Origin: a virus | Lineage: Duplodnaviria; Heunggongvirae; Uroviricota; Caudoviricetes | Length of the DNA stretch: 24,322 nt | Strand: one strand, 5' to 3' | IMG/VR virus record: IMGVR_UViG_651703075_000001 | Coordinates: 64,001-88,322 of that record | Shown: positions 2,881 to 9,308 of the stretch, in pieces | Layout of the letters: each line of letters opens with the position of its first letter | How positions within the stretch are numbered: the first letter of the stretch is position 1 | Translations under genes and position numbers: made by a program | Notes under the pieces: model-generated | What the model was told of the DNA's origin: nothing | The model's input: the letters and a program-made list of their open reading frames with translations, nothing else | The model's database searches: none

Positions 2881-3125
2881 TGGGAATCTGGATGGAAGTT
2901 AGGTGTGAGGACCGGTCCGAGGAGTGGTCCGAAGGTCACGGCTATTTCCCGCACAGGTGTTGGTCTCACGAAAATGAAGGACCAATGGGAGAAGCTCCTG
3001 AAACAAGGGAAGGAGTGATTAACACGTACAGACACCTGGAGGAGGAAGCCCGGTCCCTGGGGTGGGTAAGGTTCCGTCACGGGTGGGTCTGCCCCTATTG
3101 CAAGAACCTCAGGCCTAAGGTATAG
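2880..3125 (+). CDS. hypothetical protein with C-terminal CPYC
   Basis: TAATG overlap with the upstream stop; RBS AAGGAGG; 81 aa. Confidence 0.75.
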   Translation: MGIWMEVRCEDRSEEWSEGHGYFPHRCWSHENEGPMGEAPETREGVINTYRHLEEEARSLGWVRFRHGWVCPYCKNLRPKV

Positions 3126-3168
3126 TTGGCTTATCTGTCGGACCATCCACTCGTAAGGAGGATTAAGA

Positions 3169-3708
3169 ATGAACATTGATTGGAGTAAGGCACCTAAGGG
3201 TGCAACGCACTGGGAGCCAACAAGCCAGAAATTTGTCGGAGGATGGATGAAGAAAGAGGGTTCCTCCTGGTTTTGGTGGCGCAACATGACTCAGACTTGG
3301 AATCCCTCTTATCTCGGTGACCCGTCTCGGCTGGAAACATTCCAGCCCCTACCGCAGAAGACTTGGGACGGCCAGGGCCTGCCTCCCGTTGGGACGGTTT
3401 GCGAGGCAATCCACGAAGACATCAACTCAGGCAAGCCGGTAAAGGCCGAGATACTGAAGCACCACGACAACGGTCTGTCGGTCGCGTTCTTCTGGGTCGA
3501 CGCACCTGTCGAAGCCGAAGGAAATCTGTACTGGGCCCAACGTTTCCGCCCTCTGCGCACGCCCGAGCAGATTGCCGACGAACAGCGTCGTAAGGACATT
3601 ATTGAGTTGGCTAACGTCATCCGCGATGCTGGTGATGGAAACGATTACGTGCTAGCAGAGGCCCTGCATGACGCAGGCTATCGTAAGAAGGAGTCTGATG
3701 ATGACTAA
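3169..3708 (+). CDS. Pseudomonas phage protein of the IDWSKAPxGATH...WDGxGLPPVGTVCE type
   Basis: RBS AAGGAGG; motifs I recognise from Pseudomonas (pro)phage hypotheticals. Confidence 0.8.
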   Translation: MNIDWSKAPKGATHWEPTSQKFVGGWMKKEGSSWFWWRNMTQTWNPSYLGDPSRLETFQPLPQKTWDGQGLPPVGTVCEAIHEDINSGKPVKAEILKHHDNGLSVAFFWVDAPVEAEGNLYWAQRFRPLRTPEQIADEQRRKDIIELANVIRDAGDGNDYVLAEALHDAGYRKKESDDD

Positions 3709-6734: not shown

Positions 6735-6772
6735 CAAAAGAAAACCCCGCCAACTTCCGTCAGCGGGGTTTC
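6735..6772 (-). terminator. intrinsic terminator of the minus-strand block
   Basis: AAACCCCGCTGAC-GGAA-GTTGGCGGGGTTT followed by TCTTTT. Confidence 0.85.
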
Positions 6773-7098: not shown

Positions 7099-7377
7099 TC
7101 AAAACGGAAGCTCCCACTTGATGAGGCTTTCCAGGGCTACCTCGATATCCTTAGCCCTCAAAGGGTCTTCGTGGCCTTCAACGGGAAATGTTGCCTCAAC
7201 TTTTACTGCATCAATGAGACAAGCTCCTGGAACCTTCCGTACTACTGTTGGGACCACGATGGAGACGATCTCACACGCCGGGGCATAGCTATAGACCTCG
7301 AACTCCTCTGAAGCCCCTTCATACTCATTCCCTTCGGGAGTCCACCGCTTCCATACAACGTTGACGACAATCTTCAT
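7099..7377 (-). CDS. hypothetical protein
   Basis: 92 aa; RBS GAGGTGG; coupled to the upstream stop. Confidence 0.75.
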   Translation of the reverse strand: MKIVVNVVWKRWTPEGNEYEGASEEFEVYSYAPACEIVSIVVPTVVRKVPGACLIDAVKVEATFPVEGHEDPLRAKDIEVALESLIKWELPF

Positions 7378-7553
7378 TCATTCCACCTCGTACCACCATG
7401 ATCTTTTCTTTCCAGCATCTGCTTCTCTTGGGCTTCCTGGAACTTAGACTCATCCCAGGAAGACTTAGTGTCAACCAGGATTGACGCCAGAATACCCAGG
7501 ATTGCCAGGACGATCATCGCCTCTGTCAGGGTGAACCCTTTTTCCTTTTTCAT
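7374..7553 (-). CDS. 59-aa type IV prepilin-like protein (class III signal peptide, N-terminal methylation motif), absent from the ORF track
   Basis: MKKEKG|FTLTEAMIVLAILGILASILVD...; RBS AAGGAGG; ATGA overlaps on both sides. Confidence 0.85.
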   Translation of the reverse strand: MKKEKGFTLTEAMIVLAILGILASILVDTKSSWDESKFQEAQEKQMLERKDHGGTRWNE

Positions 7554-8125
7554 TCAGCCTCCTTGCCCTGGACAAGCAAGGTATTGGCTTGACGTTCCAT
7601 CTCGGCGATGTGAAGGCGCTGGAAGCCGTTCTGAGTTTCCATGGGAGAGAGCAGTACCTGGTTTGCCGGGTAACCTTCCTCCGGGGTTTCTTTGGTGTCA
7701 GGCTGAGGAAGGTAGCGGCGCCGCTCCAGCTCCTCGAACAGGACAGCCATATCTTTGTCCATCTCTCGGGTACAGGTGATCACACCGTTGATTTTCCAAC
7801 CCACACCACCACCGTGTATGGAAGTGACACTGACAGTGAAAGGGTCATGTTTGTTGCTCATTTGGGTCTCCTGAAGGTGGATGGAAAGAACATCTTGTTG
7901 CAGAGCGTCCAGGTAGGTGCGGACCTCTTTGTTTCGGTTGGCATGGCTGTCCAGGTGGCTCAGATGTACATAGCTTGCAGGGCCCAGCCGTGCAGCCCTG
8001 TCCGAAACCAGGTTGAACAGCTTGAGGGTATCTCGCTTGAGATTTCCCGACAGAACTATCCAGGAAGGCTCAAACTGAGGGCCGTCTGCATGATCGGTGT
8101 ACAGGTCTACGGTCAGAGTGCTCAT
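7550..8125 (-). CDS. hypothetical protein
   Basis: 191 aa within the tightly packed operon. Confidence 0.75.
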   Translation of the reverse strand: MSTLTVDLYTDHADGPQFEPSWIVLSGNLKRDTLKLFNLVSDRAARLGPASYVHLSHLDSHANRNKEVRTYLDALQQDVLSIHLQETQMSNKHDPFTVSVTSIHGGGVGWKINGVITCTREMDKDMAVLFEELERRRYLPQPDTKETPEEGYPANQVLLSPMETQNGFQRLHIAEMERQANTLLVQGKEAE

Positions 8126-8354: not shown

Positions 8355-8686
8355 AGTATCTCTCCTCTTTCACGGGCTTCAGCCTCAACGTCGTCCGTCA
8401 AGACTTTCTGAAATTCCATCGTACACTGGTAGACCATCTCATTCAAGATTCTCTTGTTGAGCCTCTTGCGACGGTTCTCGTGTTCCAGCACCTGGCACGC
8501 TTTTGGACGTTTTGGAAGCTTGCCTACCAGGCAGTCGTACTGCTCCGCAGTCAGCACCCTACTTACCTGGACACTTCCAAAACCGTTTCCAGGGTCGGTC
8601 ATAACTTCCAAATAGGAGACGTAAGCTAGACCATGAAACGTCTCTTCCAGGCTGTTCAGCTTCAACTCCGTCACGGCTAGTCCCAT
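8351..8686 (-). CDS. hypothetical protein
   Basis: 111 aa; overlaps neighbours. Confidence 0.7.
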   Translation of the reverse strand: MGLAVTELKLNSLEETFHGLAYVSYLEVMTDPGNGFGSVQVSRVLTAEQYDCLVGKLPKRPKACQVLEHENRRKRLNKRILNEMVYQCTMEFQKVLTDDVEAEARERGEIL

Positions 8687-9105
8687 AGCTTATACGACCT
8701 CACTGTCCCGCCCGAGTAAATATCCAGTGCCTTTGCTGCCTCAACAGCCTCCTCAGCGCTGGCCCCTGCCATCATGGCTCCCAGGGCGAACTGAGTGCCT
8801 GACCCAGCAGCCCGTGGCCTTTCAAGGTTCACCTTTTCGGAGTAGATGCCGCCGTCCCAGGAGATAAAGTGAAGACCATCTGCATCGAGAACCAGACCGG
8901 AAACCTTCAGCTCCTGGTCTTCCATTCCGTCGCCGTTCACATAAGCCTCAGCGAGAACTTTCCAGTCGCATACCGCCCCTGACAGCCAGAAAACAATGCC
9001 ATCCACTTCTAGCCGTTTTTCAGCGTCCTCGTCGGTGATTACCCCTCCCTGGGTGATCCTTCCATCGGTTGCAATGATCCCATCCTTGTAAGCGATGGTG
9101 GTCAT
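8677..9105 (-). CDS. HslV/proteasome-beta-like Ntn-hydrolase peptidase
   Basis: Starts M-TTIA..DG.I..DGRIT; has AGSG..FALGAM and A...DIYSGG motifs; ATG 9105 coupled to the upstream TGA. Confidence 0.8.
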   Translation of the reverse strand: MTTIAYKDGIIATDGRITQGGVITDEDAEKRLEVDGIVFWLSGAVCDWKVLAEAYVNGDGMEDQELKVSGLVLDADGLHFISWDGGIYSEKVNLERPRAAGSGTQFALGAMMAGASAEEAVEAAKALDIYSGGTVRSYKLWD

Positions 9106-9308
9106 GCGCGTCCTACCTTCTTCAGGTACAGACGAATGAGCGGGTAGCTGACAGGCAGCAGCCCAACGAGGATGACCACCCGGGCAGTCCACCAAGCCAG
9201 AAGAACAGCAGCATCCCAGACTTCAGCTCCGAGGCATGCCAAGTCCTCCCGGTTGAAGGGCGCTTGAAAGTGAAGCTTCAGTTGTTCCATTTTGGACATC
9301 TTTTTCAT
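9102..9308 (-). CDS. small putative membrane protein
   Basis: RBS GGAGGA; hydrophobic stretch AAVLLAWWTARVVILVGLLPVSYPLI. Confidence 0.65.
   Translation of the reverse strand: MKKMSKMEQLKLHFQAPFNREDLACLGAEVWDAAVLLAWWTARVVILVGLLPVSYPLIRLYLKKVGRA

What the first reader, a model, noticed from the sequence alone, without database searches (positions are those of the whole stretch)
7374..7553. Phage-encoded minimal type IV pilin mimic (missed by the ORF track)
Seen: 59 aa, MKKEKG-FTLTEAMIVLAILGILASILVDTKSSWDESKFQEAQEKQMLERKDHGGTRWNE, with a strong RBS and ATGA coupling on both sides. Established: P. aeruginosa PilA begins roughly [28 protein letters not shown]; prepilin peptidase PilD cleaves after Gly and methylates Phe+1, and Glu+5 is needed for assembly. 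All of these positions are retained, but the globular pilin head is absent. Phage inhibitors of pilus assembly (Tip and Aqs1 acting on PilB) are known, and FimU-like minor pilins have been reported in prophages. A headless pilin helix in a lytic myovirus is a different design. Inference: a dominant-negative subunit or PilD decoy that blocks type IV pili (excluding pilus-dependent competitor phages, stopping twitching) and possibly the PilD-dependent type II secretion pseudopili.
Basis: partly seen in the sequence, partly recalled or inferred. Interest (0 to 1): 0.85.

Follow-up and report, generated by a model that had tools for sequence, protein, structure and literature searches.

The report
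Headless pilin stub of Pseudomonas phage
A lytic Pseudomonas phage carries a real 59-codon gene that encodes only the signal and stalk helix of a bacterial pilus subunit. It probably tampers with the host's pili, but this gene family and this idea are already in print and still untested.

Summary
Window 7374-7553 (minus strand) is a real, expressed, conserved 59-aa gene in a KPP10/PAK_P3-like Nankokuvirus. It has a textbook prepilin (class III) signal (Pfam N_methyl, 38.5 bits against a cut-off of 21.2). Gly-1, Phe+1 and Glu+5 are invariant in all alleles. The predicted mature product is a single 53-residue helix with no globular head.

It was not "missed" in public records. PAK_P3 gp139 is annotated with a PulG note, and UniRef names it a prepilin-type cleavage/methylation protein. 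The idea is not new either. Sztanko et al. (Cell Rep 2026; preprint 2024) describe "truncated PilA, N-terminal 60 residues" in six non-temperate Pseudomonas phages. They propose incorporation into pili or inhibition of assembly as superinfection exclusion, without testing it. The scan has flagged this class on other genomes too.

- The gene is middle/late, not early, in PAK_P3 RNA-seq.
- The tail is an orphan under purifying selection.
- A 9-bp repeat lengthens the membrane helix in some alleles.
- Comparable pilin stubs of 43-90 aa occur in many unrelated phages.
- Nankokuviruses are themselves reported to depend on pili.

Function is still inferred. Interest is moderate to low.

The parts
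7374..7553 (-). 59-aa mini-prepilin gene (homologue of PAK_P3 gp139 / PAK_P30139; PHROG 10597)
   Evidence: ORF list; Pfam N_methyl 38.5 bits; phrog_10597 E = 2e-44 over 59 of 59 positions; annotated in PAK_P3; dN/dS about 0.21; transcribed in PAK_P3.
7536..7553 (-). Leader peptide codons M1-G6 (MKKEKG), basic, ending in Gly-1; predicted PilD cleavage after G6
   Evidence: In a profile search of the PDB, residue 7 aligns with residue 1 of mature pilins and pseudopilins (1oqw/5vxy, 2hi2, 5wda and others). G6 is invariant. Cleavage itself was not tested.
7473..7535 (-). Residues 7-27: F+1, E+5 and a 21-residue hydrophobic alpha1-N helix with Gly at mature position 14; Asp replaces the usual Pro22
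   Evidence: Hydropathy up to 3.1 over residues 12-22; alignments to pilins; nearly invariant among alleles.
7497..7505 (-). 9-bp unit GCAATCCTG (Ala-Ile-Leu) inside the membrane helix; present once here, twice in Ab03, three times in Ab17
   Evidence: Allele DNA and translations; alignment A1.
7374..7472 (-). Residues 28-59 plus stop: 32-residue polar, charged helical tail (8 acidic, 6 basic) with invariant Trp33, Phe38 and C-terminal TRWNE; an orphan sequence
   Evidence: Hydrophobic moment is at most 0.14 over the body of the tail and rises to 0.32 in its last residues. The helix is in the AF2 model. Tail dN/dS is 0.13-0.22. Of 1.84 billion representatives, only the Nankokuvirus cluster matches full length.
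7558..7564 (-). Ribosome-binding site AAGGAGG, 4 nt upstream of the ATG
   Evidence: Read directly from the sequence.
7550..8125 (-). Upstream gene (191 aa, PAK_P3 gp140 homologue, unknown function); its TGA overlaps the mini-prepilin ATG
   Evidence: phrog_10851, unknown function; no Pfam hit.
7099..7377 (-). Downstream gene (92 aa, PAK_P3 gp138 homologue, unknown function); its ATG overlaps the mini-prepilin TGA
   Evidence: phrog_10165, unknown function.
6741..6772 (-). Rho-independent terminator that closes the minus-strand transcription unit containing the gene
   Evidence: 14-bp stem plus T run. The equivalent site is annotated from RNA-seq in PAK_P3.

Best explanation
The gene encodes a headless type IV pilin, that is, a prepilin signal plus only the alpha1 stalk helix. 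Shown: the motif, its conservation, the single-helix model, transcription, and purifying selection. Inferred: the basic leader keeps the N-terminus in the cytoplasm and the hydrophobic helix inserts in the inner membrane. The host prepilin peptidase PilD then cuts after Gly6 and methylates Phe7, leaving a 53-residue membrane-anchored helix with Glu5 and a polar periplasmic tail. Because its N-terminal 21 residues look like those of real pilins, the peptide enters the type IV pilus assembly pathway, and possibly the type II secretion pseudopilus pathway. Lacking the globular domain that forms the outer layer of the filament, it stalls or weakens filament growth. In the second half of infection the cell then displays fewer working pili. 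The likely benefit is superinfection exclusion and protection of progeny, since pili are a receptor for many P. aeruginosa phages and reportedly for Nankokuviruses themselves.
For: Canonical class III signal: N_methyl 38.5 bits against a cut-off of 21.2. Residue 7 aligns with residue 1 of mature solved pilins, including P. aeruginosa PAK pilin and a T2SS GspG. G-1, F+1 and E+5 are invariant in all alleles, and the N-terminal 28 codons show almost no non-synonymous change. A buried Glu is costly in a plain anchor, so its conservation points to pilin-type interactions. The same signal and helix recur in unrelated virulent phages with non-homologous tails of 17-60 residues: Delftia PhiW-14 gp119 (44 aa), KVP40-like Vibrio phages (61 aa in F86; an 82-aa annotated CDS in 1.081.O), and Acinetobacter Acibel004 gp97 (107 aa). 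Among the 79 best IMG/VR loci, 21 ORFs are 80 aa or shorter. The shared function therefore sits in the N-terminal part. No neighbouring gene is shared among these phages, so the partner is a host component. Shutting down pili is an established theme in this genus: LSL4 PIT4 abolishes twitching, and LSL4 is stated to use pili as receptor. EPa24/26 are listed as needing 'T4P, LPS core'. Phage-made pilins are processed and assembled by host machinery in other systems: P-FimU and the SNJ2 pilins. Sztanko et al. proposed the same two mechanisms for this class. A pilin membrane helix alone can impair pili within 10 min in Caulobacter, so a middle/late gene in an 18-min cycle still has time to act.
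Against: There is no experimental evidence for PilD processing, membrane insertion, or any effect on pili or secretion for this protein. Expression is middle/late and modest, whereas known exclusion proteins of virulent phages are early. Pro22 of type IVa pilins is replaced by Asp. Alleles with 3 or 6 extra residues between Glu5 and Gly14 are found in viable phages, which fits poorly with precise packing in a filament. The tail is conserved and must do something this model does not explain. The receptor table lists pili for every PAO1-active phage tested, including Pbunaviruses, so its pilus mutant result should be treated with caution. The N-terminal helix cannot tell pilus from secretion pseudopilus targets.
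Confidence: 0.5

Rival explanations
1. The stub is incorporated into otherwise functional pili, or into the tip or priming complex, and changes their surface so that phages bind less well. Assembly is not blocked. This is the P-FimU-like 'replacement' mechanism.
For: P-FimU proteins are incorporated without loss of pilus function yet block tip-binding phages. Sztanko et al. list this as their first option for the truncated PilA family. SNJ2 viral pilins are assembled by host machinery. Geobacter PilA-N shows that a head-less alpha1 pilin can sit in a filament.
Against: Geobacter PilA-N needs a separate PilA-C partner, and no such partner is encoded nearby. A subunit without a globular domain leaves a gap in the outer layer. 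The helix-length polymorphism and Asp22 fit poorly with regular packing. Late, modest expression in an 18-min cycle gives little time to rebuild pili.
Confidence: 0.15
2. The class III signal is only a device to place a small periplasmic effector (the conserved polar tail) on the inner membrane with N-in, C-out topology. The target is unrelated to pili or secretion, for example an injection block, envelope enzyme control or lysis timing.
For: The tail is under purifying selection with invariant Trp33, Phe38 and TRWNE, and it is unique to this genus. Expression is middle/late, in step with its operon neighbours. Helix length can vary, as expected for a mere anchor.
Against: A plain anchor does not need invariant G-1, F+1 and E+5. 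Other phages keep the same N-terminus with tails as short as 17 residues and of unrelated sequence. The tail is uniformly polar over most of its length, with no evident binding face.
Confidence: 0.15
3. The mature membrane helix mimics the inner-membrane pilin pool and acts as an intramembrane ligand of host sensors such as PilS or the Pil-Chp receptor, so that the cell behaves as if full of pilin.
For: In Caulobacter, 17 residues of the PilA membrane helix are enough to signal to the kinase PleC. They reduce pilus-phage susceptibility by 77% in 10 min. PilS is described as sensing PilA through its membrane segments (introduction; Kilmury and Burrows 2016, not held). Nankokuvirus LSL4 already targets PilS with PIT4.
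Against: PAK_P3 infection massively alters and degrades host RNA, and the gene comes on late. Changing host transcription would therefore achieve little. Pro22 is absent here; from memory of Kilmury and Burrows 2016, this residue matters for the PilS interaction, but I could not check that.
Confidence: 0.1
4. It is a PilD decoy. It competes with prepilins and pseudopilins for the peptidase, so that unprocessed subunits accumulate.
For: It has a perfect substrate motif.
Against: PilD is catalytic, so a cleavable substrate does not titrate it. Transcript level is modest: about one sixth of the phage DNA polymerase per base and about 1/70 of the capsid gene at 13 min. Pilins already processed before infection would be unaffected.
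Confidence: 0.07
5. It is a decaying remnant of a captured host pilin gene with no function.
For: It is small, and its function is unknown.
Against: It is present in all 34 Nankokuvirus records at 81-100% identity. dN/dS is 0.21. The RBS and translational coupling are intact. G+C is 48%, close to the window's 54%, so the composition does not stand out from the phage; P. aeruginosa is about 66% from general knowledge.
Confidence: 0.03

Closest known systems
Truncated P-PilA family ('N-terminal 60 residues of PilA') in six non-temperate Pseudomonas phages, noted by Sztanko et al., Cell Rep 2026 (PMC12952977; preprint 10.1101/2024.03.29.587342)
   Same: Same description (about 60 aa, pilin N-terminus only, virulent Pseudomonas phages) and same hypotheses (incorporation, or block of assembly leading to exclusion). 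Almost certainly the same gene family. In 50,697 phage records, the only Pseudomonas phages matched by this ORF are the 34 Nankokuvirus records, and every Pseudomonas record shown for the Delftia stub query is a Nankokuvirus.
   Different: Their Table S3 is not held, so identity is inferred rather than checked. The paper gives one paragraph and no experiment. It assumes early expression by analogy with T4, whereas PAK_P3 RNA-seq shows middle/late expression.
P-FimU of F10-like P. aeruginosa prophages
   Same: A phage-encoded pilin-family protein with a class III signal that enters the host pilus machinery and protects against pilus-binding phages.
   Different: P-FimU is a full-length minor pilin with a globular domain. 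It is made by prophages, is incorporated at the pilus tip, and leaves pilus function intact. Here there is no head, and the phage is strictly lytic.
Geobacter PilA-N (geopilin domain 1; PDB 9egp, 7tgg, 2m7g, 6vk9)
   Same: Closest solved structure by sequence (E = 3e-9 with the profile, aligned over residues 2-52). It is a natural type IVa-like pilin reduced to the alpha1 helix, about 61 residues when mature.
   Different: It is a cellular protein that works with a separate PilA-C partner. It keeps Pro22 and the aromatic residues. It is not a viral inhibitor.
Phage inhibitors of type IV pili: Tip/Aqs1 (PilB), Zip (PilZ), PfsE, and PIT4 of Nankokuvirus LSL4 (PilS/FleS kinase domains)
   Same: Same presumed outcome, loss of functional pili and exclusion of pilus-dependent phages. 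PIT4 shows that this genus invests in pilus shutdown.
   Different: None of these is pilin-like. They bind cytoplasmic or platform components. PIT4 is an unrelated 131-aa early protein found only in LSL4.
Caulobacter PilA and its 17-residue CIP peptide
   Same: A 59-aa prepilin (45 aa mature) that is only a helix. Its membrane segment alone impairs pili and lowers susceptibility to a pilus phage within minutes.
   Different: It is a type IVc (Flp-type) pilin processed by CpaA and acts through the kinase PleC. It is a host protein, not a viral one.
Type IV pilins of the archaeal provirus SNJ2
   Same: Virus-encoded pilins that hijack the host secretion and assembly machinery.
   Different: They are full pilins that build dominant functional filaments, in archaea and from a temperate virus.

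Membership tests
Prepilin-type class III signal / N_methyl domain (PF07963) | HMM match above the curated threshold | tested here: met
   38.5 bits against a cut-off of 21.2, E = 7e-10, residues 1-26; 39 bits in the genome scan.
Prepilin-type class III signal / N_methyl domain (PF07963) | Short basic leader ending in Gly-1, then Phe+1 and Glu+5, then about 20 hydrophobic residues | tested here: met
   MKKEKG | FTLTE, then a 21-residue hydrophobic stretch. Invariant in all alleles. Residue 7 aligns to residue 1 of mature solved pilins.
Prepilin-type class III signal / N_methyl domain (PF07963) | Cleavage and N-methylation by the prepilin peptidase (PilD) | not testable with these tools
   Needs mass spectrometry or a gel shift in wild type against a pilD mutant.
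Type IVa pilin / T2SS pseudopilin (structural subunit) | Globular alpha-beta head domain packed on alpha1-C | tested here: not met
   The mature length of 53 residues is all one helix in the AF2 model. The tail is polar, with a hydrophobic moment of at most 0.14 over most of its length.
Type IVa pilin / T2SS pseudopilin (structural subunit) | C-terminal disulfide-bonded D-region (pilins) or Ca-binding loop (GspG) | tested here: not met
   There is no cysteine in any allele.
Type IVa pilin / T2SS pseudopilin (structural subunit) | Helix-breaking Gly14 and Pro22 in alpha1 | tested here: inconclusive
   Gly14 is present and invariant. Position 22 is Asp, not Pro. Alleles with +3 or +6 residues move Gly to position 17 or 20.
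Type IVa pilin / T2SS pseudopilin (structural subunit) | Encoded with pilus or secretion machinery genes | tested here: not met
   It lies in a phage middle/late operon between orphan genes, downstream of a helicase and an HslV-like peptidase.
Truncated phage P-PilA (Sztanko et al.) | About 60-residue protein consisting of the PilA N-terminus only, encoded by non-temperate Pseudomonas phages | tested here: met
   59-65 aa in alleles. Found in 34 Nankokuvirus records, which are lytic phages. The accession list (Table S3) could not be checked.
Phage superinfection-exclusion proteins acting on type IV pili | Expression reduces pilus function and plating of pilus-dependent phages | not testable with these tools
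   No experiment on this protein was found in the held literature.

The most novel reading that the evidence does not exclude
The stub is a sub-stoichiometric chain terminator. Once cut by PilD it is loaded like a pilin, and a single copy at the base of a growing filament aborts extension of both type IV pili and the type II secretion pseudopilus. Its middle/late timing means its main job is to strip receptors from cells about to lyse, so that progeny are not wasted on them, rather than to exclude phages early. The many unrelated 43-90-aa stubs in other virulent phages would then be convergent versions of one general viral tool.
Probability: 0.3. Interest if true: 0.6.

Novelty: already known. 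Interest (0 to 1): 0.38.

Why it matters
If the stub really disables pili, it would be the smallest known inhibitor of type IV filaments. It would act from inside the assembly pathway rather than on the ATPase, which makes it a useful probe of how subunits are loaded and a template for anti-virulence peptides. It also bears on phage therapy. Nankokuviruses such as PAK_P3 and KPP10 are therapy candidates, and a gene that changes pili or secretion in infected P. aeruginosa affects cocktail design with pilus-dependent phages. The gene and the hypothesis are already published. What remains is the experiment, not the discovery.

Tried and rejected
Search for relatives of the tail. A HMMER profile search of 1.84 billion representatives found only the Nankokuvirus cluster matching full length. 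The other 6,797 hits match the N-terminal part only. The word-index search gave only 9 Nankokuvirus proteins. The ESM Atlas gave nothing above the noise level.

Search for a conserved partner gene. A BLASTP of the window's operon proteins against the neighbours of 79 viral mini-pilin loci found no shared neighbour.

Complex prediction with PilD.

Literature. Four early full-text searches found no paper on phage head-less pilins. The relevant paper was found only after notes from earlier scan reports named 'P-PilA / P-FimU'. Kilmury and Burrows 2016 (PilA-PilS) is not held. Table S3 of Sztanko et al. is not held. I found no receptor statement for PAK_P3 itself.

Ideas rejected:
- Holin or spanin. 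The gene is in the wrong operon, the tail is net acidic, and a 32-residue tail is too short to span the periplasm.
- Recent capture from the host. G+C is 48% against 54% for the window.
- A chance ORF on the opposite strand of 7468-7779(+). Conservation and dN/dS support the minus-strand frame.

I did not run a fold search on the model, because a single helix gives meaningless matches.

Full report
**What is there**

Its start overlaps the stop of the upstream 191-aa gene, and its stop overlaps the start of the downstream 92-aa gene. Both overlaps read ATGA. An AAGGAGG site lies 4 nt before the ATG.

The window is the last 24.3 kb of an 88,322-bp phage record. A 3-kb stretch around the gene is 99.7% identical to Pseudomonas phage PH826 and 98.0% to PAK_P3. 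All 34 matching records are P. aeruginosa phages; every record listed or opened is a myovirus-named phage (vB_PaeM) or is classified in Nankokuvirus. Earlier scan notes name the genome KPP10.

**Is it a real gene, and is the motif more than chance?**

- Pfam N_methyl (PF07963) matches residues 1-26 at 38.5 bits against a curated cut-off of 21.2, E = 7e-10. It is the only such match in the genome.
- The protein is the full-length type of PHROG 10597.
- It occurs in all 34 Nankokuvirus records at 81-100% identity.
- In eight distinct alleles, Gly-1, Phe+1, Glu+5, the hydrophobic core, Trp33, Phe38 and the C-terminal TRWNE are invariant.
- Pairwise dN/dS is about 0.21. The first 28 codons are almost free of non-synonymous change, and the tail stands at 0.13-0.22.
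- G+C is 48% against 54% for the window, so it is not a recent capture from a high-G+C host.
- PAK_P3 RNA-seq shows that it is transcribed.

The statement that it was "missed" is true only of the first stage's 60-aa ORF track. GenBank and RefSeq annotate it (PAK_P30139, YP_008857774.1, with a CDD note "pseudopilin PulG"). UniRef calls it a prepilin-type N-terminal cleavage/methylation domain protein.

**Anatomy**

The leader is MKKEKG. In a profile search of the PDB, residue 7 aligns with residue 1 of the mature chains of solved pilins and pseudopilins. These include P. aeruginosa PAK pilin (1oqw/5vxy), Neisseria pilins and a T2SS GspG (5wda). The predicted PilD site is therefore after Gly6.

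The mature product would be 53 residues: 21 hydrophobic residues with Glu5 and Gly14, then Asp in place of the usual Pro22, then a 32-residue polar tail with 8 acidic and 6 basic residues. The tail's hydrophobic moment is at most 0.14 over most of its length. AlphaFold2 gives one helix over residues 9-57, mean pLDDT 76. From general knowledge, 53 residues is about the length of the alpha1 helix of type IVa pilins, so this looks like a pilin reduced to its stalk.

The closest solved proteins by sequence are the Geobacter PilA-N "geopilin domain 1" chains, which are natural head-less pilins. They align over residues 2-52 at E = 3e-9. The tail has no other relatives. Of 1.84 billion representative proteins, only the Nankokuvirus cluster matches full length, and 6,797 others match the N-terminal part only.

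**An allele polymorphism**

A 9-bp unit, GCAATCCTG, inside the membrane helix is present once here and in PAK_P3, twice in Ab03 and three times in Ab17. It adds Ala-Ile-Leu once or twice between Glu5 and Gly14. The register between the N-terminal motif and the tail is therefore not strictly fixed. This fits a competitor, poison or anchor better than a precisely packed filament subunit.

**Context and timing**

The gene lies in a minus-strand unit that runs from a mapped promoter near the helicase gene, through an HslV-like peptidase and several orphan genes, to a strong terminator at 6741-6772. In the PAK_P3 S5 table, gp139 has 228/38/151 reads at 3.5 min and 2873/231/3132 at 13 min. That is log2 fold change 3.63, and the table classes it as late. 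The early block is gp74-gp112.

Per base at 13 min, its level is about one sixth that of the DNA polymerase gene and about 1/70 that of the capsid gene. PAK_P3 has a 12.3-min eclipse, and the paper gives 18 min for its fast growth cycle. So this is a middle/late, modestly expressed gene. That argues against titration of PilD and against an effect through host transcription.

**Relatives elsewhere**

The same signal-plus-helix with short, unrelated tails occurs in other virulent phages:
- Delftia PhiW-14 gp119, 44 aa.
- KVP40-like Vibrio phages, next to thymidylate synthase: 61 aa in F86, and an 82-aa annotated CDS in 1.081.O.
- Acinetobacter Acibel004 gp97, 107 aa.

Longer phage pilin-like ORFs are also annotated in cyanophages (123 aa, "pilin") and others. 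A scan of IMG/VR found 127 viral contigs with a relative. Among the 79 best ORFs, 21 are 80 aa or shorter and 11 are 81-110 aa. Short metagenomic examples sit among tiny overlapping ORFs.

None of the window's neighbouring genes has a homologue next to these stubs. The common function therefore lies in the N-terminal part, and the partner must be a host component.

**What is already published**

Leads from earlier reports of this scan pointed to Sztanko et al., Cell Rep 2026, with a 2024 preprint. That paper shows that prophage FimU mimics are incorporated into pili and block tip-binding phages. [quoted passage not shown] It proposes either incorporation into pili without phage-binding sites, or inhibition of assembly, as superinfection exclusion. 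No test is reported.

Their accession table is not held. However, the only Pseudomonas phages in 50,697 records matched by this ORF are the Nankokuviruses, and every Pseudomonas record shown for the Delftia stub query is one too. It is almost certainly this family.

**Other relevant papers**

- Nankokuvirus LSL4 encodes PIT4, an unrelated early 131-aa protein. It abolishes twitching by binding the kinase domains of PilS, FleS and PA2882. The paper states that LSL4 uses pili as receptor.
- Nankokuviruses EPa24 and EPa26 are listed as needing "T4P, LPS core". That table lists pili for every PAO1-active phage, which calls for caution.
- Aqs1/Tip, Zip and PfsE are non-pilin inhibitors of pili.
- In Caulobacter, 17 residues of the pilin membrane helix are enough to act on the kinase PleC. 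They cut pilus-phage susceptibility by 77% in 10 min.
- An archaeal provirus makes pilins that the host assembles.

**Best explanation (confidence about 0.5 for function; about 0.95 for identity as a class III mini-pilin)**

The protein inserts in the inner membrane and is cut and methylated by PilD. It then enters the pilus assembly pathway, and perhaps the T2SS pseudopilus pathway, through its pilin-like helix. Lacking a head, it stalls or weakens filament growth and so removes a phage receptor in the second half of infection. All steps after "has the motif" are inferred.

**Rivals**

- Incorporation without blocking assembly: 0.15.
- A membrane anchor for a tail with an unrelated periplasmic target: 0.15.
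- A mimic of the membrane pilin pool acting on sensors: 0.10.
- A PilD decoy: 0.07.
- A dead remnant: 0.03.

**Verdict**

This is a real and cleanly defined gene.

- the middle/late timing;
- the orphan but constrained tail;
- the Asp22 substitution;
- the helix-length repeat polymorphism;
- the alignment of the cleavage site to mature solved pilins;
- the absence of a conserved viral partner;
- the breadth of stubs across phage lineages;
- the link to reported pilus dependence and to PIT4 in the same genus.

The decisive work is experimental and straightforward.

Noticed in passing
L044, L045, L075, L092, L022, L033 (IMG/VR loci, match at about 3001-3250): A recurrent viral family of 70-82-aa prepilins. 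The tail is a small two-cysteine domain with the motif R/K-C-I-x-G-Y-K-F ... V-K-C instead of a full pilin head. It is distinct from the all-helical charged-tail type of this window.
   Followed up: no
L004:2501-2686 and L006:1498-1746 (Vibrio phages F86 and 1.081.O): In KVP40-like Vibrio phages the mini-prepilin (61 aa in F86; an 82-aa annotated CDS in 1.081.O) sits immediately upstream of thymidylate synthase. This again places it in a nucleotide-metabolism or replication block rather than an early block.
   Followed up: partly
window 8677-9195 (-): An HslV/proteasome-beta-like peptidase gene (phrog_1040, E = 2e-41; weak Pfam Proteasome hit) lies in the same minus-strand unit. The listed ORF starts at an upstream TTG, 30 codons before the start annotated in PAK_P3.
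   Followed up: no
window 9102-9308 (-): A 68-aa ORF with one hydrophobic, Trp-rich membrane segment is a second small membrane protein in the same operon (PAK_P3 gp144 homologue).
   Followed up: no
L007:1201-1398 and L010:1201-1389 (phages Ab17 and Ab03): The 9-bp tandem unit GCAATCCTG varies in copy number (1, 2 or 3) between otherwise near-identical alleles. This looks like replication slippage inside a coding membrane helix that is tolerated in viable phages.
   Followed up: partly
PMC12838167, Table 1 (read): The receptor table lists type IV pili as required by every PAO1-active phage tested, including Pbunaviruses that I recall (from general knowledge, not checked here) as being regarded as LPS-dependent. 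The pilus mutant used may therefore have a second defect. The pilus dependence of Nankokuviruses needs independent confirmation.
   Followed up: no
window 7099-7377 and 7550-8125 (-): The flanking genes differ in which allele pairs show high synonymous divergence. For gp138, dS is 0.97 against Epa16 but 0.12 against Ab06. For gp140, dS is 0.06 against Epa16 but 0.52 against Ab06. This indicates recombination breakpoints at or near the mini-prepilin gene.
   Followed up: no
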